Sequence record: NC_094493.1
Length of the DNA stretch: 64,000 nt
Reading direction: 5' to 3' (one strand)
DNA from: a phage
Shown here: positions 1-60,673 of the stretch, in pieces
Layout of the letters: every line of letters starts with the position of its first letter
How positions within the stretch are numbered: the first letter of the stretch is position 1
The notes under the pieces: model-generated
The model's database searches: none
Told to the model about the DNA's origin: nothing
What the model saw: the letters and a program-made list of their open reading frames with translations, nothing else
Made by a program: the position numbers and the translations under genes

Positions 1-1212
1 ATAAGCGATCTGCAGCAGAAGCGAATGCCTGACTGCAAGATACCTATGAAAATCAGCAATCAGGACGACATTAAGCGATACCTGATCAGTGCTGGTTGGC
101 TTCCGACAATGTGGAGAACTAAGGATGTAACTAAAGACAGCAAGAAGAAAGCTCTACCTGATGCAGATGTTGATGCACGAGTATATGCATACATGGACGA
201 GCTTTTAGAGTCAGAGTATTGTGACCTAATTATCAACTTCTGGAACAAAACTGATGCTAAGTTTCAGACAACAGTGCACAAGTTCCGAAGCTTTCCTAAC
301 TCCGAAAGGATTAAAAAGGAAGTATTCGGGAAAATACGTAGAAAAGCTAGGGCACTTATTACTTCTCCGCAACTGAAAGATACGTTTGGACACCTATGTC
401 CGAATCTTGAAAAATTGAACGGAGAGATGGCTAAGGATATCGTCTTGTGGTTATCCTTGCGAAACCGCAGATCGGTCCTTGATCCAATCAAGGAGGATAA
501 GGTTGATACTGGTCTTCTTAATCACCCACGCTTGAAGATTGACCATAAGCTTCCTGCTAAAAGCTCCGGATTAACAAACACTTCCAGACAGAAACACAGC
601 ATTTGTGCAAACATGCCTAAACCCTCTCCTAAAGTGGTTATGGGTAAGGAGATGCGTAGCTTGTGGGGTGTTCCTCCTGGATACTTTGAGATCGGTATTG
701 ACGGGTCCAACTTAGAGCAGCTTATCGGGGCTTGGGGTGCCTTTGAGTTCGACAACGGCTTGTATTATGATGTTGTAAGTAACGGGGACGCACACCAAAA
801 CAATGCTGAGGCATATACAAAAGTAGCAGGCAGAGAGGTGTCTCGTAACGACGGTAAACCTATCACGTATGGGGTTATGTACGGGGCACAAAAAGATAAA
901 GTTGCAGATATGCTGGACATCTCTCCAGAGTTGGGACAAAGGGTAATCGATGCACTCTGGGATGCCAACCCTGGTCTTAAGGGGCGCAAAGAGGATCTGG
1001 AGAAATTCTGGGAAGCAACAGGTAAGAAGTTTATCTACTCTTTTGATGGTCATGCTATCTGGACCCGATCTAAACACTCTTTACTTAATGCATACCAACA
1101 GAATGGTGGTGCATCGCTGTGTGACTTGGTTGGGATACTTATGCACCACCAAATGGTGAAGCGTGGGTGGTACGATGAAGGTGTTCGTCGTATTATTTAT
1201 TACCATAAATAA
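1..1212 (+). CDS. DNA polymerase, family A (Pol I/T7-like), C-terminal region; 5' end lies outside the window
   Basis: Frame is open from base 1. Motif A-like IDGSNLEQL and motif B-like RxxxxGKxITYGVMYG; segment after motif B aligns by eye with T7/Klenow up to just before motif C. No HDE motif before the stop. Confidence 0.65.
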   Translation: MSDLQQKRMPDCKIPMKISNQDDIKRYLISAGWLPTMWRTKDVTKDSKKKALPDADVDARVYAYMDELLESEYCDLIINFWNKTDAKFQTTVHKFRSFPNSERIKKEVFGKIRRKARALITSPQLKDTFGHLCPNLEKLNGEMAKDIVLWLSLRNRRSVLDPIKEDKVDTGLLNHPRLKIDHKLPAKSSGLTNTSRQKHSICANMPKPSPKVVMGKEMRSLWGVPPGYFEIGIDGSNLEQLIGAWGAFEFDNGLYYDVVSNGDAHQNNAEAYTKVAGREVSRNDGKPITYGVMYGAQKDKVADMLDISPELGQRVIDALWDANPGLKGRKEDLEKFWEATGKKFIYSFDGHAIWTRSKHSLLNAYQQNGGASLCDLVGILMHHQMVKRGWYDEGVRRIIYYHK

Positions 1213-6252: not shown

Positions 6253-6282
6253 AGCCCTGCCCGAAAGGGTGGGGCATTTTTG
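6253..6282 (+). terminator. Putative intrinsic terminator
   Basis: GC hairpin (ctgccc gaaa gggtgg) followed by a T-run, directly after the stop at 6238. Confidence 0.4.
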
Positions 6283-6813: not shown

Positions 6814-7011
6814 ATGATTTATCGAATCCGTGTAAGAGAAGATGCACCAGGCTGTTACTTTGACTGGCGTGGGTGGTGGTTTCTCCACCCAATGGATGGA
6901 CTCACAGATAGAATGCTGGATGCTGCCCTTTACACAGATACCGACATAGAATATAATCTCTATCTGAAGGACGGTATAGATAACGGCCTGTTTGAAGCAA
7001 TTCCTGTGTAA
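6814..7011 (+). CDS. hypothetical protein
   Basis: ORF with RBS acaggagg; promoter-like TTGACA at ~6714. Confidence 0.45.
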   Translation: MIYRIRVREDAPGCYFDWRGWWFLHPMDGLTDRMLDAALYTDTDIEYNLYLKDGIDNGLFEAIPV

Positions 7012-7079: not shown

Positions 7080-7505
7080 ATGATTTATGAAATGCCAAAA
7101 CTGATTCGTGACGATGCCCAAAACGCTCACACCATTATTATGGGCAAACGCATGGATATTATTTGTCATAAAGATTTCTGGGAAGGAAGTTACTTCACAG
7201 AGTATTTTGGTAAACTGGACAATGGTCTGCTGATCCAGTTCTACACCGATGCGGAAAACAATATCTGCTGGGAGTTCGAAACTGAAGATATCCATAAACT
7301 TTTCACCTTCCTCGGTATTAAGGTTGAGGCCAAGTTTGAAGAAGGTGAGTGCGACGATTGTGGATTCTACGAGGTAACAGATTTCTACCTCCCGAGCGGT
7401 GAGAACCTTTACTATGAAAGCCACTTCGGTAACTCCAATATGCCACAGTGCTGGACTGAGTTTTTTGAAATTGCGGAAGAGGAGCTGGCATACCGTGATT
7501 ATTGA
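7080..7505 (+). CDS. hypothetical protein
   Basis: ORF with RBS ccggagaac. Confidence 0.5.
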   Translation: MIYEMPKLIRDDAQNAHTIIMGKRMDIICHKDFWEGSYFTEYFGKLDNGLLIQFYTDAENNICWEFETEDIHKLFTFLGIKVEAKFEEGECDDCGFYEVTDFYLPSGENLYYESHFGNSNMPQCWTEFFEIAEEELAYRDY

Positions 7506-7953
7506 TACTGTAGGGGGAGATCTAATCTCTCTTTTCAAGAAAGGGTCGGGCCACATGATCCACGGTTGTAACTGCTTTCACACAATGGGTGCAGGCATAG
7601 CGAAAGACATTGCCCGTGAGTTCCCTCAAGCACTGGCAGCCGACAAAGAGACTGCTTATGGTAATCTAGACAAGCTGGGTATGTTTTCTTGTTGGGAGCA
7701 TTTTGCCAAGAACAGGGTCGTATATGGAATCAACCTGTATACCCAGTTCTACCCAGGGCCCAATGCTGAATACTTCTCAATCATGAAAGGTTTTGAGCGA
7801 GTCAACGAGGTATTCAAAGGTGTGTCATTGCCGTTCTACATTCCTAAAATCGGATGCGGTATTGGCGGTCTAAAGTGGGAACATGTAGAAGATGTAATTA
7901 ATCTTGCAACCACAGATATTGATGTGGTTGTAGTAGAGTACAAAAAGTGTTGA
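7495..7953 (+). CDS. Macro domain protein (ADP-ribose binding / putative ADP-ribosyl hydrolase)
   Basis: Macro-domain signature VIIDTVGGDL...HGCNCFHTMGAGIAKDIA and GCGIGG. Start uncertain: GTG at 7495 overlapping the upstream stop, or ATG at 7552. Confidence 0.55.
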   Translation: MIIDTVGGDLISLFKKGSGHMIHGCNCFHTMGAGIAKDIAREFPQALAADKETAYGNLDKLGMFSCWEHFAKNRVVYGINLYTQFYPGPNAEYFSIMKGFERVNEVFKGVSLPFYIPKIGCGIGGLKWEHVEDVINLATTDIDVVVVEYKKC

Positions 7954-8007
7954 CGACCATCTTCTGAGGTGATATAGTCTCCACAACAACTAAGAGAGGA
8001 GAGCACT

Positions 8008-8204: not shown

Positions 8205-8399
8205 ATGAGAAACAAGAAAGAGCTTTACTCTGGTGAGTGGATCAACGATCAACAGGTGGGAGAGGTAACCTGCTTCCGATGTTTTACCAGGTACAATCTT
8301 AAAACTGCACCAAAAAGTGTTCCAAAGACTGATGGTTATTACATAAAAGAACCTTATTGCCCAAAATGTAAATGCCGATTATACTGGAGTAACCTGTAA
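8205..8399 (+). CDS. small zinc-ribbon protein
   Basis: RBS gggagag before ATG at 8205; CxxC...CPKCKC cysteine pairs. Confidence 0.45.
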   Translation: MRNKKELYSGEWINDQQVGEVTCFRCFTRYNLKTAPKSVPKTDGYYIKEPYCPKCKCRLYWSNL

Positions 8400-8661: not shown

Positions 8662-8994
8662 ATGGTAACATTAGAAAGACGTAAAGCTATCGCCGCCACA
8701 CTGGCAGACATCTTTTGGGAGTGCAATTTAAAAGATACTAGATATTGTGGCGCATCTGTAGATGCATTGTTCCCACGGCCTACTATTGTTGCAATGGGCA
8801 ACCTGCTCGATGTGGTATATGGAGCATGGGACAAGGAAGGTGGATTCTATATCTGGCAACCTGACTACGGGACTTGGAAAGAGGTTAGTGGTTCTTCGGA
8901 CTTCACTCCTGCAGTGGCTAAAATGGATGGCTGGAAAATCTATGTCGGTAACGACATGGAACTGAAAGGCGAAATTGTTTACTGGTTACCTTAA
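8662..8994 (+). CDS. hypothetical protein
   Basis: ORF, same-strand context. Confidence 0.5.
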   Translation: MVTLERRKAIAATLADIFWECNLKDTRYCGASVDALFPRPTIVAMGNLLDVVYGAWDKEGGFYIWQPDYGTWKEVSGSSDFTPAVAKMDGWKIYVGNDMELKGEIVYWLP

Positions 8995-29179: not shown

Positions 29180-29470
29180 TTACAGATTGTTGTCGATAGT
29201 ATTTAAAATATCTACAGCAAGATCTGCCATTTTTCGAACATACTCTGCAAACTCAACAGGATCCTTGATCAAAGAATTTACAGGGTCGTACCCTAGAGCG
29301 TTCAAAATGGCTGCAGCATCTACAACCTTTTCATCATTTGCAAAGATCTCTCCGTCAAACTTATAGGTCCATTTTGAGTCAATCTTGGCAGGGCATGGCT
29401 GGTCCATGCTTGTTACACCATCGTCTTTAACCTCTCCTGCGTTATCAATATTCAGAACTAAATCCATCAT
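29180..29470 (-). CDS. hypothetical acidic protein
   Basis: ORF in coupled array. Confidence 0.5.
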   Translation of the reverse strand: MMDLVLNIDNAGEVKDDGVTSMDQPCPAKIDSKWTYKFDGEIFANDEKVVDAAAILNALGYDPVNSLIKDPVEFAEYVRKMADLAVDILNTIDNNL

Positions 29471-55472: not shown

Positions 55473-56756
55473 TTATTCCAGCACCTCCCAAGTGTCTGGG
55501 TTAACATTTCGGACGCAGATACCGACAGGGAATTGGTAGTTGTTGTCTTCTGTCCTTGCTTGATATTTGAAGGTGACAAACTTGCCGATCATTTCCTGCA
55601 TTCTGTCATAGCTACGCTCCTCGTGCGTACCTTTCATCTTCATTTTAACAACAATACCTTCCTTGTCAACACAGATAAGAACACCTTCATCATTCTTATC
55701 TTTCTCAACGTCAATAACTTTCACCTCTGCGTCGTTGAACTTTTTCCATTTCAATGCTTCAGATGTTCTCTGACCGTACTCATATTTACCACAGAAGTTA
55801 CGCATAATGGTACCTTCATATCCTTCGGACATGAATATACCAACAGATTCTTCGCAATGATCAACTGTGTACGCAAGCTCTGCGTCAACAACCTTGATAT
55901 GGTCAAGCATCAGAGTGGTAACGGTATCCTCTGCATCCATAAGATCCTTGCAGCGTCCAGACTCTGTTTCGGGATCCCACCACACCTTGTCGCTAGGAAT
56001 ATCAAAAATGTGATACTCCAGATCGTAGCTACAGTACCCACCGTAACGCAAATCATCACGAACAGGCTCAACATCGACAGGAATATCTACCTTGTTGAAG
56101 TTTTTATATGTTGATAAGCCGGACTTAATTGCGGCATGACGGCGTTTTTTATCTGCCTCATAGTCTTTATCGATCTCGGCCTGAATCTCTTCCTGTGTGC
56201 GCCACCGTTTAGCAAGAGACACTATTTTCTGCAAAGGAAGACCATGAATGTATAGTTCCCCATCAAGTTGTTTAATCCCAGTGGTAGAATGGAAAGAACG
56301 AAGTTGCTCTAAAAGCTTTCCTTGAATAGGGTAGGACTTATTACCACGGGAAATAAATTTAGGCTCACCATTTTGGAAAACAACAAGCAGACGAAGGCCA
56401 TCTAACTTACGCAAGATCCAGCAAGGTAGTTTAAGTGCCTTGCCACGCTTCAGGTAGTCATGCACCAGCATGGGTAAAAGATCAACACCCTGCTCGCAAT
56501 CTTCCATGTTTTCAACATACCCCAGACGGACTTGTTTTTCCCACTTGCTGATAGCCTCAAGCTCGGCCTGTTGCTCAGCTGTAGTCTCATTGGCACGACC
56601 TACGTTCTTAGGTGTGCATACCGTCTCTTTGTACTGCAATTTACCGTCAAGCTTGCCAAACTCTACGATAACCTTTTCGCCATCAGTGAATACTTTCCAC
56701 TGTTGGTAGCTGCCATCTTTGTTCAGTGCGTACAGTGTTGTTTTGATTTGATGCAT
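55473..56756 (-). CDS. ATP-dependent DNA ligase
   Basis: Nucleotidyltransferase motif I KLDG (ILRKLDGLRLLV); 427 aa. Confidence 0.6.
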   Translation of the reverse strand: MHQIKTTLYALNKDGSYQQWKVFTDGEKVIVEFGKLDGKLQYKETVCTPKNVGRANETTAEQQAELEAISKWEKQVRLGYVENMEDCEQGVDLLPMLVHDYLKRGKALKLPCWILRKLDGLRLLVVFQNGEPKFISRGNKSYPIQGKLLEQLRSFHSTTGIKQLDGELYIHGLPLQKIVSLAKRWRTQEEIQAEIDKDYEADKKRRHAAIKSGLSTYKNFNKVDIPVDVEPVRDDLRYGGYCSYDLEYHIFDIPSDKVWWDPETESGRCKDLMDAEDTVTTLMLDHIKVVDAELAYTVDHCEESVGIFMSEGYEGTIMRNFCGKYEYGQRTSEALKWKKFNDAEVKVIDVEKDKNDEGVLICVDKEGIVVKMKMKGTHEERSYDRMQEMIGKFVTFKYQARTEDNNYQFPVGICVRNVNPDTWEVLE

Positions 56757-57025
56757 TACTCGGCCTCTTCCTTAAAAATTTTAAACATCTCTTCTTTACT
56801 CATTACCAACCAGTCTCCCATAAAGTCAACTAGCCAATCTCCCTGGTACAAGACAAGGTTACCAAAAGGCTCGACAAGCTCACACATGCGACGAAGATCT
56901 CTGGTCCGAACAGGTGACGATGTAAACACACCTGTATCAATCCACCGTTGCAGATCAGATACTGATGAAGAGCTTCCGTCAAACTGGTGGGCTTCTACAG
57001 GTTTAGCAAGATTAAATAACGGCAT
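56756..57025 (-). CDS. hypothetical protein
   Basis: ORF, coupled. Confidence 0.45.
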   Translation of the reverse strand: MPLFNLAKPVEAHQFDGSSSSVSDLQRWIDTGVFTSSPVRTRDLRRMCELVEPFGNLVLYQGDWLVDFMGDWLVMSKEEMFKIFKEEAE

Positions 57026-57320
57026 TGCAGTCCTCCTTCTGTAGTAGGTCTTTTATAGGATAAACAAGTAAGTGTGGATCGGAATAACGTATAGTCTTAT
57101 TCTGCCACACTATGAACTTTATTACAACCAAATTTACAATATCTTTATCACCATGTAGCCCAACACACACATTTGTCCATATTTTGTGGTTGAAGATCTT
57201 GCTATCGATGTAGATTTTAGTGTCAAACTTATCTTCCATTCTACCTATAAGTTTGATCAGCTCCTTCATCTGGTCGCCAAACACAGCATCTTTTTCAAGA
57301 TCTCTGGAATGCTTGTACAT
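57012..57320 (-). CDS. hypothetical protein
   Basis: ORF. Confidence 0.45.
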   Translation of the reverse strand: MYKHSRDLEKDAVFGDQMKELIKLIGRMEDKFDTKIYIDSKIFNHKIWTNVCVGLHGDKDIVNLVVIKFIVWQNKTIRYSDPHLLVYPIKDLLQKEDCNAVI

Positions 57321-57382
57321 AACTAACTACCTCGCTGCATACTTTCCATAATAAGTAAAGCCGGGATTACCCGGCTATGTTG

Positions 57383-58096
57383 TCAAATATACTCTGTTAC
57401 ATCCTTGAAGCTCGAAGGCTTCATGATCTTACCTTTACTGTCAAGGAATATGATAACTTTATTACCGTTGTAGAATTCTTCCTTAGCAACAAAACCTTCA
57501 TATCGACCATCAAAGCGTCGCTCAAGATCTTTAATCTCCAACTCGATGAGTTGTTCAGCAGGCATATCTGCACTGGCACCGTGTGAATACCGTAGATGGT
57601 TGACCCGTGCAAACTTGCTGTCATTCGATTTGAGAACCTTACGCATCATCCCGCACACATCGCCGCGAAGCTGGAACAGCAAAGCTGTTGACAACTCTGC
57701 TAAGCGGTAAGCAGACGCTCTTTGCTTAGAGGTGTTTTTCGCAGCGATCAGTGTATCATAGAACTCACCAATCTTGAACTTAATACCTCGTGGATTATCA
57801 AACAGGTTTGACCACTTTTCGTGATTGTCATTAACAAGATAAGCGGCATAACTTGTGACAACATGAAGATCGCAGGCCTCTTTTAGCAAGTGATCTCCAC
57901 CATCACCTTTCTCCAGCTCTTCCAAAACTTCATTGAACTCTTCCTCAATGAAGCTAAGCTGTAATTCGAATGGTGTGTATGATTTTTTCACCTTAGCTGC
58001 CACACGGTTCCAGTTTTCCACCCAGTTGGCAGACCAAAGGTAGTTTTCAGGCTGAGACAGTTTTTCCAGGTTGTCGATCAGTTTAGTATTCAGCAT
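57383..58096 (-). CDS. MazG-like nucleoside triphosphate pyrophosphohydrolase domain protein
   Basis: EEEFNEVLEELEKGD...KEACDLHV matches the MazG EExxE...E...D metal-binding helix pattern. Confidence 0.5.
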   Translation of the reverse strand: MLNTKLIDNLEKLSQPENYLWSANWVENWNRVAAKVKKSYTPFELQLSFIEEEFNEVLEELEKGDGGDHLLKEACDLHVVTSYAAYLVNDNHEKWSNLFDNPRGIKFKIGEFYDTLIAAKNTSKQRASAYRLAELSTALLFQLRGDVCGMMRKVLKSNDSKFARVNHLRYSHGASADMPAEQLIELEIKDLERRFDGRYEGFVAKEEFYNGNKVIIFLDSKGKIMKPSSFKDVTEYI

Positions 58097-58109
58097 TAAA
58101 GGTCTCCTT

Positions 58110-58871
58110 TTAAAGTTCCATAAAGTTTTCTACAGTTTCAATAAATACTTTATCAGAGAAAGCGTCAACAGCACCGTTAAACCATACAGGGATCCCGCGA
58201 TCCTCATATTGATAAAGGTCGCTACGTGAAATGCCACTTCCATCTGCACTCTGCGAATCATACTTGTTTACAATCAGCAGTTTTGTGCCTTTACAAGTAG
58301 CAGGAAACAATTCCCAGTTAAAATTAATAACTGTGTTAGAACAACCTACCAGGATAACCATATCATTGCTTGTGAGAGATGTCAACAGGTCATACATGTC
58401 TGTATACTTAGGAGCAACCTCACCGAAGAACACTACATTGGGCTTAACCCAGGTATACTTACCTGTATCTACCTCCGTGTATCCGATATTTTTAATTACA
58501 TCATTACCTTCAGCATCTTCGTAGGTGATTTCAGGCAAATACCCGTGGACATGTAAAATATCTTCATGTTTTACACCAGCACGCTCCAGCAAATCATCTA
58601 CATTGGTGGTAAGGTTGATCACACGACCAGACCAGCGGGAATACCACTCAGCGATCCGAAGATGTGCAAGGTTAGGATCAACACTGCCCAGAGCTACACG
58701 ACGTGCATTGTAAAAGTCATGCACCTTATAGTAGTTCTTGGCAAAGGTGTGGATGTTGCACACCTCATCTATGCTGAAATTCTCCCACATTGCAGTACTA
58801 CCAGATCGGAAAGTGGGAATACCAGATTCAGCGCTCAAACCAGCACCGGAGATAATAATCAGTCGTCGCAT
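58110..58871 (-). CDS. Sir2-family NAD-dependent protein (zinc-ribbon-less sirtuin-like)
   Basis: GAGLSAESGIPTFR, TTNVDDLLERAG, HVHG, PNVVFFGE, VILVGCS sirtuin motifs; no CxxC pairs. Confidence 0.65.
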   Translation of the reverse strand: MRRLIIISGAGLSAESGIPTFRSGSTAMWENFSIDEVCNIHTFAKNYYKVHDFYNARRVALGSVDPNLAHLRIAEWYSRWSGRVINLTTNVDDLLERAGVKHEDILHVHGYLPEITYEDAEGNDVIKNIGYTEVDTGKYTWVKPNVVFFGEVAPKYTDMYDLLTSLTSNDMVILVGCSNTVINFNWELFPATCKGTKLLIVNKYDSQSADGSGISRSDLYQYEDRGIPVWFNGAVDAFSDKVFIETVENFMEL

Positions 58872-58879
58872 AAGTGCCC

Positions 58880-59230
58880 TCAGTAGATGTTTTGTTTAAT
58901 CTCTATTCCAAACTTTTTAAACGAGTCAGCTGCAAGCATGAATTTACGAGCCGCTGATGGATTAGAAGTATGTACGAAAATCTTCACGTTGTCAACCACG
59001 GGAGGCTTACCGAATACAAATTTTTCCTCCAACATGGATAGGCAATCGTATCCTTCGAATACTTCTCCTAGGTCGTTGTCCATATGCCACTCAGAAACGC
59101 GTCTGTAGAGCTTTCCCTTATCGTTAATAAAATCCATAAACTCGGAGGAATTCTTCAGCCAAACAGCGTCTGGGAGCCCGTAATTTGACGGATCTCTTAA
59201 GTCATCTAGCCACACAATCAACTTCTTCAT
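58880..59230 (-). CDS. hypothetical protein
   Basis: 116 aa ORF between the Sir2-like and RNA ligase genes. Confidence 0.45.
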   Translation of the reverse strand: MKKLIVWLDDLRDPSNYGLPDAVWLKNSSEFMDFINDKGKLYRRVSEWHMDNDLGEVFEGYDCLSMLEEKFVFGKPPVVDNVKIFVHTSNPSAARKFMLAADSFKKFGIEIKQNIY

Positions 59231-60162
59231 TGCATATAGTTCTCGTTGTGGAAATAGTAATCAAGTATCTCACGGCGTTCCTGCTCCAGGAGGCAGTTCC
59301 ACACATCCTCTGTGTAATTGCTACGAATGAAGTTTACCATGCCGTAAAACTCTTCGTCAACACGTTTAAAGATATCATCATCCCAAATCTTCCAAGCTTT
59401 ACCCCTCATTACGGCCTTCCGTGCCAGATAGTATGGAGACTTGATCTTCAGCTGCAGATCATAAGGGTAGTAAGGCTTACGAATCATATACCCTTCACCT
59501 CTTGTTTCTGCAGCTAATTCTTTTGCATAGCTGAACGGAATTTCACGCACAGTGTGAGGACGTTTTGCACCAAGGTATTTGGCAATCCCATCTAAAGCTG
59601 CTTCTGGTAGCATTATTCCAGAATCATTATATCTGCAACCTATCAAATATGCGCCATGATCTTCCTGAACAATATGCGGATCTGAAGGGTGACAAATTTC
59701 AAACATGAATGTCATGTTTTCATTGCCCATAACCTTCTTGATAAGATCTAAATTACCACATTGCTCTTGGATGGTTTCCTTTGCAAGGTTACAATATGGA
59801 GAATCAAGAGACCCGGTTGTTGAGAACAATAGTTCACCTTTATGAGATGATACCACACCGAGGAATCCGTTCTTTTTCTCTACCGCAGTAACAAGTTTAC
59901 TGTCCGGTAGGTTGGTGGAGTTTTCTCCTAAGTTGAATACTTTTGTGAAAGGCCATGCCACAACATTCCCCTCATTGCCAACAACAATACCTCGGCACTC
60001 CAGTAAACGCGGAGACAAATGCCACAGATTGTTGTAGAATACTTTTCTGGCATATTTATAGATCTTTAATCCAAGATCTGGATAATACCGACTGGTTACA
60101 AGACCTTTGTCTACTAGGTCATCTGCATTAAAATACTTCATCATACGTTCCTCATTTGTCAT
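59227..60162 (-). CDS. RNA ligase, T4 Rnl1-like
   Basis: LLECRGIVV...KVFNLGEN...EKKNGFL...LFSTTGS aligns with T4 Rnl1 ALECRGIMF...KFFNLNEN...TKEDGSL...LFKSKGS; motif I reads KKNG rather than KxDG. Confidence 0.6.
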   Translation of the reverse strand: MTNEERMMKYFNADDLVDKGLVTSRYYPDLGLKIYKYARKVFYNNLWHLSPRLLECRGIVVGNEGNVVAWPFTKVFNLGENSTNLPDSKLVTAVEKKNGFLGVVSSHKGELLFSTTGSLDSPYCNLAKETIQEQCGNLDLIKKVMGNENMTFMFEICHPSDPHIVQEDHGAYLIGCRYNDSGIMLPEAALDGIAKYLGAKRPHTVREIPFSYAKELAAETRGEGYMIRKPYYPYDLQLKIKSPYYLARKAVMRGKAWKIWDDDIFKRVDEEFYGMVNFIRSNYTEDVWNCLLEQERREILDYYFHNENYMQ

Positions 60163-60262
60163 TTTGTCAGTCTATCCTGCCACACAAATAACCTAGTGTC
60201 AACACTTGAAATTAACAAAACAGTTAGGTATACTATCATTAAAATTAAAACGGAGGGTTGCT

Positions 60263-60673
60263 ATGTCTAAAATGCTATATATCGTGCGTGGTCTGCCAGG
60301 GTCTGGCAAATCAACACTGGCAAATGCGCTATCTTTAGAAGGTCTGTATCCACATTTTGAGAACGACATGTTCTGGTATGACGATGACGGCAATTACAAC
60401 TGGGATGCAAGTAAAGTAACACTCGCAGCAAAATGGTGCAAAGATAACGTAGAAGATATGATGCGTATGGGATACGACCGTATCGTGGTAAGTAATACGT
60501 TTACAAAAGAAAAACATGTGCAGGAATATGTTGACATGGCAATCAGTCACGGGTATAGTTATACCGTGATCGTGGTTGAAAACCGCCACGGTAATAAAAG
60601 CATTCATGATGTTCCAGACAAGGTTGTGGATCGTATGGAACGCCAGCTTAAAAACTGCATTAAACTTAAATGA
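60263..60673 (+). CDS. P-loop polynucleotide kinase-like protein
   Basis: Walker A GLPGSGKST resembles T4 Pnk kinase N-terminus; RBS ggaggg; divergent from the RNA ligase gene. Confidence 0.5.
   Translation: MSKMLYIVRGLPGSGKSTLANALSLEGLYPHFENDMFWYDDDGNYNWDASKVTLAAKWCKDNVEDMMRMGYDRIVVSNTFTKEKHVQEYVDMAISHGYSYTVIVVENRHGNKSIHDVPDKVVDRMERQLKNCIKLK

What the first reader, a model, noticed from the sequence alone, without database searches (positions are those of the whole stretch)
7495..7953. Macro-domain protein in the early region (candidate ADP-ribosylation eraser)
The ORF carries the macro-domain glycine-rich ADP-ribose-binding signature (HGCNCFHTMGAGIAKDIA, GCGIGG). Phage macro domains are plausible countermeasures to host ADP-ribosylating toxins or defence systems, or processors of O-acetyl-ADP-ribose from the phage's own Sir2-like enzyme at 58110-58871. 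The start codon is ambiguous (GTG 7495 or ATG 7552).
Basis: partly seen in the sequence, partly recalled or inferred. Interest (0 to 1): 0.55.

Follow-up and report, generated by a model that had tools for sequence, protein, structure and literature searches.

The report
Phage macrodomain, T4 Tk.4/AdfM orthologue
This is a real 152-residue macro-domain gene of an rV5-like E. coli phage, a full-length homologue (likely orthologue) of phage T4 Tk.4 (AdfM), which lets T4 resist the bacterial DarTG2 defence, so it is a member of a known family rather than something new.

Summary
ORF 7495-7953 (+) encodes a 152-aa macro domain: Pfam Macro above its cut-off, PHROG 335 at E 1e-59, AlphaFold pLDDT 95.7, and dN/dS of 0.05-0.10. 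The start is GTG 7495. Orthologues in RB49 and T4 have ATG at the same codon, and residues 2-8 form the first beta strand.

The window is a Vequintavirus (rV5-like), and rV5 already annotates this gene as tk.4. The protein is 39% identical over its full length to T4 Tk.4. A 2025 preprint renamed Tk.4 AdfM because deleting it makes T4 sensitive to DarTG2.

By sequence and fold it belongs to the TARG1/DarG/SCO6735/Poa1p class. The catalytic lysine of DarG and TARG1 is an invariant glutamine here (Gln84, 117 of 117 family members). [quoted passage not shown]

Most likely function: early removal of DarT2-type ADP-ribose from phage DNA. This is inferred, not shown.

The Sir2 gene is real, but a partnership is not supported. 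It lies 50 kb away, T5 has the Sir2 and no macro domain, and hundreds of macro-bearing phages lack Sir2.

This is a new member of a known kind, of modest interest. One extra finding: the gene is a sharply bounded mosaic patch with two alleles among otherwise near-identical phages.

The parts
7495..7953 (+). Macro-domain CDS: 152 aa, GTG start, TGA stop included. Homologue (likely orthologue) of rV5 gp204 'tk.4' and of T4 Tk.4/AdfM.
7480..7484 (+). Shine-Dalgarno-like AGGAG, 10 nt upstream of GTG 7495.
   Evidence: Read directly from the sequence. Identical in rV5 and typing phage 14.
7080..7505 (+). Upstream 141-aa ORF of unknown function (PHROG 8157). Its stop overlaps the macro start by 11 nt, so the two are probably translationally coupled and co-transcribed.
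6929..6957 (+). Sigma-70-like promoter match (TTTACA-17-TATAAT, 11 of 12), a candidate promoter for the 7080-7953 pair. It lies downstream of a terminator-like hairpin at 6254-6275. Consensus match only.
7561..7614 (+). Residues 23-40, HGCNCFHTMGAGIAKDIA. Contains His23 and Asn26, which align with SCO6735 His24 and Asn27, and the first glycine-rich ADP-ribose loop (MGAGIA).
   Evidence: Literature.
7732..7746 (+). Residues 80-84, N-L-Y-T-Q. Gln84 occupies the position of the catalytic Lys80 of DarG and Lys84 of TARG1, and equals Gln85 of SCO6735. Invariant in 117 of 117 family members.
   Evidence: Literature.
7852..7869 (+). Residues 120-125, GCGIGG, the second glycine-rich (diphosphate-binding) loop. 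By motif register, Gly122 corresponds to the second Gly of the GCG motif, which I take to be SCO6735 Gly128. Gly124 is at the position of TARG1 Asp125, so there is no Lys/Asp dyad.

Best explanation
The gene encodes a stand-alone ('orphan') macro-domain ADP-ribosyl glycohydrolase of the phage Tk.4/AdfM family, made from the early, host-polymerase-transcribed gene block of a Vequintavirus.

When the phage infects a cell carrying a DarTG2-type toxin-antitoxin defence, the freed DarT2 toxin uses NAD+ to attach ADP-ribose to thymidines in single-stranded phage DNA, which blocks replication. The macro domain binds the ADP-ribose through its two glycine-rich loops (MGAGIA and GCGIGG). It then hydrolyses the thymine-ribose bond, releasing ADP-ribose and restoring the base, so replication continues.

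Its active site is the SCO6735 type rather than the DarG type. Gln84, held in place by Asn26, occupies the position of the catalytic lysine. It would position the distal ribose for water-mediated cleavage rather than forming a lysine adduct.

Shown here: macro fold, TARG1/DarG/SCO6735 class, full-length homology to T4 Tk.4, the invariant His/Asn/Gln/Gly active-site set, and purifying selection.

Shown by others: T4 Tk.4 is needed for plaquing on DarTG2 hosts (genetics only), and SCO6735 cleaves thymidine-linked ADP-ribose on DNA.

Inferred: that this protein has that activity and that role.
For: Macro domain and fold:
- Pfam Macro is above its cut-off.
- The AlphaFold model has pLDDT 95.7.
- Foldseek top hits are TARG1, Thermus and M. 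tuberculosis DarG, Poa1p, BT1257 and SCO6735, with TM 0.69-0.76.

Class:
- The family profile against PDB sequences gives Mtb DarG 8e-15, BT1257 1e-14, SCO6735 3e-14, TARG1 2e-13, Taq DarG 5e-13 and Poa1p 2e-12. MacroD/nsp3-type domains reach only 6e-3.
- DarG is the only informative hit in NCBIfam (1e-11) and in PADLOC (1.5e-12).

Homology to T4 Tk.4:
- 39% identity over 150 of 152 residues, E 1e-43.
- rV5 annotates the gene as tk.4.
- It is the only macro domain in the window (profile control).

Function of the T4 homologue:
- tk.4 was the single transposon-screen hit on a DarTG2 host, and a clean knockout sensitises T4. It was renamed adfM (bioRxiv 10.1101/2025.11.20.689424).
- T4 lacking adfA and adfN stays DarTG2-resistant (PMC11825919).

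Active site:
- His23, Asn26, Gln84 and Gly122 align with SCO6735 His24, Asn27, Gln85 and Gly128. The Gly pairing rests on motif register.
- They are conserved in 116-117 of 117 family members.
- In SCO6735, Q85A is inactive, N27S is nearly inactive, and the enzyme cleaves thymidine-linked ADP-ribose on single-stranded DNA (PMC9411070).

Other support:
- T5, the DarTG2-sensitive reference phage, has no macro domain.
- A more distant phage macro domain, PhiKZ gp104, removes thymidine-linked ADP-ribose in vitro (PMC13309987).
- dN/dS is 0.05-0.10.
Against: - No biochemical or genetic data exist for this protein or for any Vequintavirus orthologue.
- The evidence for T4 Tk.4 is genetic only. The preprint says enzymatic removal 'seems likely'.
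- Identity to T4 Tk.4 is only 39%.
- The catalytic lysine of DarG is absent, and the DNA-binding Lys34 and Lys89 of SCO6735 are not conserved (Ala33, and a shorter loop after Gln84).
- The family has its own invariant residues (Asp50, Lys60) whose role is unknown.
- TARG1-class enzymes are promiscuous. They act on Glu/Asp-linked protein ADP-ribose, O-acetyl-ADP-ribose, and uracil-linked ADP-ribose in RNA, so the physiological substrate could be different.
- I did not establish how often hosts of this phage carry DarTG2.
Confidence: 0.65

Rival explanations
1. The protein is an active eraser, but its relevant substrate is not DarT2-modified DNA. It could reverse ADP-ribosylation of proteins (Glu/Asp-linked) or of RNA (uracil-linked) installed by other host ADP-ribosyltransferase toxins or defence effectors.
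For: TARG1-class macro domains are multi-substrate. SCO6735 also de-modifies PARP1 E988Q. TARG1, DarG and SCO6735 all cleave uracil-linked ADP-ribose on RNA (PMC13036486). The family is very widespread, with 2825 phage records across many host genera, which could reflect a broader target range than one defence system.
Against: The only phenotype reported for a family member is DarTG2-specific: tk.4 was the single hit in that screen. No bacterial anti-phage system using reversible uracil-linked RNA or Glu-linked protein ADP-ribosylation turned up in the papers consulted. CmdT-type adenine modification of RNA is described there as irreversible.
Confidence: 0.15
2. The protein processes a small NAD-derived metabolite rather than a macromolecule. 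One option is O-acetyl-ADP-ribose from the phage Sir2. The other is ADP-ribose-1''-phosphate, as for yeast Poa1p, which is the origin of the 'phosphatase' annotation.
For: Sir2 is really present at 58110-58871 (PF02146, 98 bits). TARG1 is deposited as 'O-acetyl-ADP-ribose deacetylase 1', and Poa1p is among the best sequence and fold matches. His23 and Thr30 align with Poa1p His23 and Ser30, two residues the depositors mutated. A few family members sit next to NAD-salvage genes such as nicotinamide phosphoribosyl transferase or ribose-phosphate pyrophosphokinase (H61, H75).
Against: - Sir2 is 50 kb away on the other strand, inside an RNA-ligase / cREC / kinase-like cluster.
- T5 has a 57% identical Sir2 and no macro domain.
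- T4 is not known to encode a Sir2 (my own knowledge).
- Macro-bearing Pseudomonas, Acinetobacter, Aeromonas and Shigella phages (477 records) fall in groups with fewer than 10 Sir2 hits each.
- No Tpt1/KptA domain, the source of ADP-ribose cyclic phosphate, was found among 58 other window ORFs of at least 100 aa.
- The phage RNA ligase is T4 Rnl1-like. By established knowledge that type leaves no 2'-phosphate.
- Poa1p Phe152 is Gly124 here.
Confidence: 0.08
3. The protein acts mainly without catalysis. It could bind and occlude DarT2, as the C-terminal domain of DarG and catalytically dead SCO6735 do, or it could sequester ADP-ribose-containing ligands.
For: Catalytically dead SCO6735 Q85A inhibits DarT in vitro more strongly than dead DarG or dead TARG1. 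The catalytic lysine is missing here. The two Vequintavirus alleles differ mostly at residues 51-75 rather than in the invariant catalytic motifs, which could fit co-evolution with a protein partner.
Against: His23, Asn26, Gln84 and the glycine loops are conserved in 116-117 of 117 members, which points to selection on the catalytic pocket. SCO6735 with the same site is a fast enzyme. PhiKZ AdfM needs its Asn23 for activity in vitro.
Confidence: 0.07
4. The protein reverses or tunes ADP-ribosylation carried out by the phage's own ADP-ribosyltransferases, as a counterpart to the T4 enzymes Alt, ModA and ModB.
For: T4 encodes both such transferases and Tk.4. Phage-encoded transferases are common (my own knowledge; mentions Alt).
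Against: No ADP-ribosyltransferase domain was detected among 58 other window ORFs of at least 100 aa, and none is annotated in the relative FFH2 over this region. The T4 enzymes modify arginine, a linkage macro domains are not known to cleave (established knowledge). Only 64 kb of the roughly 137-kb genome was examined.
Confidence: 0.03

Closest known systems
T4 Tk.4 = AdfM (anti-DarT factor, macrodomain), bioRxiv 10.1101/2025.11.20.689424
   Same: Same family. It is 39% identical over the full length (E 1e-43) and of similar size (155 vs 152 aa). It shares the same invariant motifs (HGCNCFHTMG.G.A, NLYTQF, P.IG.GIG) and is also a stand-alone gene in a block of small genes. rV5 already names its copy tk.4.
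   Different: The host phage family differs (Straboviridae vs Vequintavirinae), as do the neighbouring genes (vs/tk.3 in T4). Only the T4 gene has a demonstrated DarTG2 phenotype. Neither protein has published biochemistry.
Streptomyces coelicolor SCO6735 (PDB 5E3B)
   Same: A stand-alone TARG1-class macro domain with glutamine at the catalytic-lysine position. It shares the His/Asn/Gln/Gly set and is among the best PDB sequence matches. It has been shown to cleave thymidine-linked ADP-ribose on DNA and to protect against DarT.
   Different: It is cellular rather than viral, and only about 22% identical. Its longer mobile loop carrying Lys89, and its Lys34, are not conserved here. The motif context is NMIGQHG against NLYTQFY. 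The Tk.4 family adds an invariant Asp50.
DarG antitoxin macro domain (Thermus aquaticus 5M31/5M3E, M. tuberculosis 5M3I)
   Same: Same class and fold (TM about 0.75; profile E 8e-15 to 5e-13). The proposed chemistry is the same: removal of DarT2-installed thymidine ADP-ribose.
   Different: DarG has the catalytic Lys80 (glutamine here) and a C-terminal DarT-binding domain (about 340 aa in total), and it is encoded next to darT. This protein scores 44.5 bits against the 250-bit NCBIfam cut-off.
PhiKZ gp104, also named AdfM (PMC13309987)
   Same: A phage-encoded orphan macro domain that counters DarTG2. It shares the class and the Asn of the N-terminal motif.
   Different: Only 22% identical (pairwise E 1e-4; hhalign probability 97%). 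It keeps the DarG-type FPTK lysine (Lys78), is imported into the phage nucleus, and has demonstrated in vitro activity. It appears to be a separate lineage within the class from the Tk.4 family.
Human TARG1/OARD1 and yeast Poa1p
   Same: Top fold matches, with the same two glycine-rich loops. TARG1 also cleaves thymidine- and uracil-linked ADP-ribose.
   Different: The TARG1 Lys84/Asp125 dyad is Gln84/Gly124 here. Poa1p is a phosphatase acting on a tRNA-splicing by-product, and no source of that metabolite was found in the window.

Membership tests
Macro domain superfamily (Pfam PF01661) | Profile match above the curated gathering score | tested here: met
   25.9 bits against a cut-off of 22, E 1e-5. 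71 of the 120 listed homologues also carry a precomputed PF01661 hit.
Macro domain superfamily (Pfam PF01661) | Three-layer alpha/beta/alpha macro fold | tested here: met
   The AlphaFold2 model has pLDDT 95.7 with a mixed beta sheet flanked by helices. Foldseek returns 196 PDB matches at E <= 0.001, and the 50 best listed are macro domains or designed hydrolases of similar fold.
Macro domain superfamily (Pfam PF01661) | Binds ADP-ribose | not testable with these tools
   Both glycine-rich loops (MGAGIA at 31-36, GCGIGG at 120-125) are present and conserved. Binding itself needs an experiment.
TARG1/DarG/SCO6735/Poa1p ('ALC1-like') class of macro domains | Closer in sequence and structure to class members than to MacroD-type or viral nsp3-type domains | tested here: met
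   The profile gives class members 8e-15 to 2e-12, against 6e-3 for nsp3 macro domains. The Foldseek top 18 are all class members.
DarG antitoxin (NCBIfam NF048014 equivalog) | Score above the curated cut-off and full-length architecture with the C-terminal DarT-binding domain | tested here: not met
   44.5 bits against a cut-off of 250. The match covers only positions 8-144 of the 338-position profile, and the protein is 152 aa.
DarG antitoxin (NCBIfam NF048014 equivalog) | Catalytic lysine (Lys80) | tested here: not met
   It aligns with Gln84, which is invariant in 117 of 117 family members.
DarG antitoxin (NCBIfam NF048014 equivalog) | Encoded next to a darT toxin gene | tested here: not met
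   The neighbours are PHROG families of unknown function. No DarT domain was found among 58 window ORFs of at least 100 aa. The one bacterial chromosomal homologue examined also lacks a DarT neighbour.
Tk.4 / AdfM family (T4 type) | Full-length homology to T4 Tk.4 | tested here: met
   39% identity, 150 of 152 residues aligned, E 1e-43. tblastn hits the annotated T4 tk.4 gene (H44). It is the single macro domain in the window.
Tk.4 / AdfM family (T4 type) | Family signature residues (His23, Asn26, Asp50, Asn80-x-Tyr-Thr-Gln84, Pro117, Gly120, Gly122) | tested here: met
   All are present. They are conserved in 116-117 of 117 sequences down to about 36% identity.
Tk.4 / AdfM family (T4 type) | Confers resistance to DarTG2 | not testable with these tools
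   Shown only for T4. Consistent with this, T5 lacks a macro domain and is DarTG2-sensitive.
SCO6735-type glutamine active site | Equivalents of His24, Asn27, Gln85 and Gly128 | tested here: met
   His23, Asn26, Gln84 and Gly122 in the HMMER alignments. The Gly pairing rests on motif register. Functional importance in SCO6735 comes from PMC9411070.
SCO6735-type glutamine active site | DNA-binding Lys34 and the mobile-loop Lys89 | tested here: not met
   Lys34 aligns with Ala33. The loop after Gln84 (FYPGPN) is shorter and has no lysine.
Poa1p-type ADP-ribose-1''-phosphate phosphatase | Conservation of the residues probed in the Poa1p structures (His23, Ser30, Phe152) | tested here: inconclusive
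   His23 is conserved, Ser30 is Thr30, and Phe152 is Gly124 (alignment; mutant names). The roles of these residues were not available in the paper library.

The most novel reading that the evidence does not exclude
The Tk.4-type macro domains, including this one, could be a mechanistically distinct branch of nucleic-acid de-ADP-ribosylases. They would have a glutamine active site plus a family-specific invariant Asp50 and Lys60. Their specificity, or their direct binding of DarT, would be tuned by the variable 51-75 segment. The sharply bounded exchange of two alleles among otherwise 95-100% identical Vequintaviruses would then be the footprint of an ongoing arms race with different DarT2 variants, or with a still unknown thymine/uracil ADP-ribosylating defence. 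The 64-aa zinc-ribbon ORF shared with RB49 could be a partner.
Probability: 0.15. Interest if true: 0.5.

Novelty: new member of a known kind. Interest (0 to 1): 0.3.

Why it matters
If the inference holds, rV5-like phages carry a built-in antidote to DarTG2, a DNA-ADP-ribosylating defence found in E. coli and other pathogens. These phages are widely used as O157 typing phages and as therapy candidates. That would help predict their host range and give a second, easily testable example of the AdfM class outside T4.

The glutamine-for-lysine active site links the whole Tk.4 family (about 2800 phage records) to the SCO6735 mechanism rather than the DarG mechanism. The papers read here do not mention this link. 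It would guide the choice of mutants: Q84A and N26A rather than a lysine mutant.

None of this changes the picture of the field. It is an incremental annotation of a gene already labelled as a macro domain.

Tried and rejected
- **Sir2 partnership.** I confirmed the Sir2 ORF and then tested co-occurrence. Sir2 homologues occur in 1022 phage records, dominated by T5-like phages. The T5 genome, fetched in full, has the Sir2 and no macro domain by tblastn or profile HMM. Rejected as the main role.
- **Own transferase, NADAR or Tpt1 partner in the window.** A Pfam scan of 58 further ORFs of at least 100 aa found none. Some Vequintavirinae (Bas60-62) carry a NADAR AdfN, but this window does not show one. 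The rest of the genome was not available.
- **DarG membership.** Rejected on score, architecture, catalytic residue and gene context.
- **Toxin partners of bacterial homologues.** The Pelagimonas chromosomal copy sits among housekeeping-type genes with no DarT. The 648-kb contig copy looks like a giant virus or jumbo phage. This was uninformative beyond showing the gene stands alone.
- **Poa1p catalytic details.** The structural paper is not in the library, so the phosphatase rival could only be weighed indirectly.
- **First structure job.** It was rerun without it.
Full report
**What is there.** The window is part of a Vequintavirus (rV5-like myovirus of E. coli). A 4-kb stretch around the finding is 99.5% identical to a record called 'Campylobacter phage C2' and about 96% identical to many Escherichia rV5-like phages.

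On the + strand, GTG 7495 to TGA 7951-7953 encodes 152 residues.

The ORF is a real gene, on four lines of evidence:
- It matches Pfam Macro above the gathering score (25.9 against 22 bits) and PHROG 335 at E 1.2e-59.
- It has homologues in 2825 phage records.
- It folds in AlphaFold2 with mean pLDDT 95.7.
- It evolves under strong purifying selection, with dN/dS 0.054 against rV5 and 0.10 against a divergent allele.

**Start codon.** GTG 7495 is the start.
- The RB49 and T4 orthologues have ATG at exactly the homologous codon (MIIDTV... and MIVKYI...).
- rV5 and typing phage 14 are annotated from the same GTG.
- Residues 2-8 are the first beta strand of the model, and Gly8 and Asp/Asn9 are conserved.
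- An AGGAG lies 10 nt upstream, and the GTG overlaps the stop of the preceding ORF (7080-7505), which suggests translational coupling.

The longest possible start, GTG 7399, has no support from homologues.

**Context.** The gene lies in a long block of small same-strand ORFs, downstream of DNA-polymerase fragments and a 408-aa protein that one relative annotates as a putative single-stranded-DNA-binding protein. All immediate neighbours belong to PHROG families of unknown function. Sigma-70-like promoter matches are enriched here (16 against 9.6 +/- 3.3 expected), and rV5 annotates such promoters in the block. Early expression is therefore plausible, but I did not test it.

**Which kind of macro domain.** With the single sequence, the best PDB matches are SCO6735 (5E3B), the M. 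tuberculosis DarG macro domain (5M3I), Poa1p and TARG1.

With a family profile the order is Mtb DarG 8e-15, BT1257 1e-14, SCO6735 3e-14, TARG1 2e-13, Thermus DarG 5e-13 and Poa1p 2e-12. MacroD/nsp3-type domains reach only 6e-3. Foldseek on the model gives the same set, with TM 0.69-0.76. DarG is the only informative hit in NCBIfam and PADLOC, but it falls far below the equivalog cut-off (44.5 against 250 bits) and covers only the macro half of the profile.

So the protein belongs to the TARG1/DarG/SCO6735/Poa1p class and is not a DarG.

**Active site.** In every alignment, the catalytic lysine of DarG (Lys80, in FPTKKHW) and of TARG1 (Lys84) falls opposite Gln84 of this protein, in NLYTQFY. 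TARG1 Asp125 falls opposite Gly124. The same glutamine is found in SCO6735 (NMIGQHG) and BT1257.

Across the window protein plus 116 cluster representatives, down to about 36% identity:
- Gln84, Asn26, Gly122, Asn80, Tyr82, Thr83 and Asp50 are invariant (117 of 117).
- His23 is conserved in 116 of 117.

The SCO6735 paper (PMC9411070) reports the following:
- The enzyme cleaves thymidine-linked ADP-ribose from DarT-modified single-stranded DNA with high turnover.
- Q85A is inactive and N27S nearly inactive.
- The proposed mechanism is water-mediated, with the glutamine positioning the distal ribose.
- Catalytically dead enzyme still inhibits DarT by binding.

The window protein carries the equivalents of His24, Asn27, Gln85 and Gly128. 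It lacks the DNA-binding Lys34 and Lys89. It also has its own invariant Asp50 and a conserved Lys60, whose roles I could not assess because model coordinates are not exposed.

**Link to a known function.** rV5 annotates its copy as tk.4. The protein is 39% identical to T4 Tk.4 over its full length (E 1e-43).

A November 2025 preprint (HIDEN-SEQ) found tk.4 to be the single T4 gene that becomes conditionally essential on a DarTG2-expressing host. It confirmed this with a clean knockout and renamed the gene adfM. Enzymatic removal of the DNA adduct was proposed but not shown. This fits the earlier finding that T4 lacking adfA and adfN is still DarTG2-resistant.

Independently, PhiKZ gp104 was also named AdfM and was shown in vitro to remove thymidine-linked ADP-ribose. 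That protein is only 22% identical to the window protein and keeps the DarG-type lysine. The two 'AdfM' proteins therefore look like separate lineages within one class. Only the Tk.4 lineage has the glutamine site.

T5 is the DarTG2-sensitive reference phage, and it has no macro domain by tblastn or profile search of its whole genome.

**Most likely mechanism.**
1. The gene is expressed early.
2. The protein binds ADP-ribose attached by DarT2 to thymidines of single-stranded phage DNA.
3. It hydrolyses the base-ribose bond through the Asn26/Gln84 site.
4. Replication proceeds.

The fold, class, homology to T4 Tk.4 and active-site conservation are shown here. The DarTG2 phenotype (T4) and the chemistry (SCO6735, PhiKZ AdfM, DarG) are shown by others. 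Transferring both to this protein is inference. I put it at about 0.65.

**Rivals.**
- **Other macromolecular substrates** (Glu-linked protein ADP-ribose, uracil-linked RNA ADP-ribose) are possible, because this class is promiscuous.
- **The Sir2/O-acetyl-ADP-ribose idea.** The Sir2 ORF is genuine (PF02146, 98 bits). However, it lies 50 kb away on the other strand, in a cluster with a T4-Rnl1-like RNA ligase, a cREC receiver-like domain, a P-loop kinase-like protein and a DNA ligase. T5 has the same Sir2 (57% identity) without any macro domain. The two families are spread differently across phages.
- **The 'phosphatase' label** comes from Poa1p. No Tpt1-type source of its substrate was found in the window.
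- **A purely binding role** is conceivable, given SCO6735's inhibition of DarT. The invariance of the catalytic pocket argues against it.
- **A role against the phage's own transferases** has no support. None was detected in the window.

**Seen along the way.**
- Against E. coli O157 typing phage 14, the flanks are 95-100% identical in 100-nt bins, but identity falls to 77-84% exactly across 7495-7994, which is the macro gene (dS 1.12).
- tblastn identity bands show about 43 records with the window-type allele (at least 95% identity) and 64 at 80-90%. Two alleles therefore circulate by gene-sized recombination. Their differences cluster at residues 51-75.
- The RB49 (Krischvirus) Tk.4 is 68% identical to the window protein, much closer than other T4-like phages at 39-46%.
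- A 64-aa CxxC...CxxC ORF at 8205-8399 is 75% identical to the ORF that overlaps the end of RB49 tk.4. It is restricted to 233 records, mostly these two lineages. This suggests a small module that was transferred between them.

**Verdict.** The gene is an uncharacterised member of the recently characterised Tk.4/AdfM anti-DarTG2 family. It was already annotated as tk.4 or macro domain protein in public records.

It is a new member of a known kind. The glutamine active site and the allelic mosaic are useful details but not surprises, so I score interest at 0.3.

Noticed in passing
window 7495-7994 compared with L006 (KP869112): The macro gene is a sharply bounded mosaic patch. It is 77-84% nucleotide-identical to typing phage 14, while both flanks are 95-100% identical. 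dS is 1.12 and dN/dS is 0.10. Two allele groups exist among Vequintaviruses (about 43 records at 95% identity or more, 64 at 80-90%). The amino-acid differences cluster at residues 51-75.
   Followed up: partly
window 8205-8399 (+); L007 1946-2137: A 64-aa ORF with two CxxC pairs (zinc-ribbon-like) is 75% identical to the RB49 ORF that overlaps the 3' end of RB49 tk.4. It occurs in only 233 phage records, mostly Vequintavirus and Krischvirus. The macro gene and this ORF look like a small module shared by horizontal transfer. RB49 Tk.4 is 68% identical to the window protein, against 39-46% for other T4-like phages.
   Followed up: partly
window 55473-60673: The Sir2-family gene (58110-58871, - strand) sits in a cluster with a T4-Rnl1-like RNA ligase (59227-60162), a cyclic-phosphate-processing receiver-like domain (58880-59230), a P-loop kinase-like protein (60206-60673, + strand), a protein annotated as nucleotide pyrophosphohydrolase in FFH2 (57383-58096) and an ATP-dependent DNA ligase (55473-56756). 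T5 has a 57% identical Sir2. Its role is unknown.
   Followed up: partly
residues 50 and 60 of the macro protein (nt 7642-7644 and 7672-7674): Asp50 (117 of 117) and Lys60 (109 of 117) are conserved in the Tk.4 family but have no counterpart in DarG, SCO6735, BT1257 or TARG1. Asp50 aligns with Tyr or Trp in those proteins. Their position relative to the active site could not be measured.
   Followed up: no
window 8693-8992 (ORF 8662-8994, +): This is a second locally divergent patch against typing phage 14 (80-90% identity, with flanks at 97-100%). It lies in a 110-aa protein of unknown function (PHROG 11918).
   Followed up: no
whole window; records MG065655, MG065659, MG065646 and others: Records labelled 'Campylobacter phage' with host Campylobacter jejuni are 95-99.5% identical to E. 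coli Vequintaviruses. The best match to the window is one of them. The host label in those unannotated records looks doubtful.
   Followed up: no
window about 29180-29470 (-): There is a homologue of the ribosome hibernation factor RaiA / S30AE. Pfam Ribosomal_S30AE matches one window ORF at E 1.8e-12, and the position is inferred from the FFH2 gp151 'RaiA' annotation.
   Followed up: no
window 25-1209 (+) and upstream region; FFH2 gp078-gp080: The family-A DNA polymerase gene appears split by an HNH endonuclease gene in the relative FFH2. The window begins inside one polymerase fragment. In FFH2 the anaerobic ribonucleotide reductase gene is likewise interrupted by an HNH endonuclease gene.
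   Followed up: no
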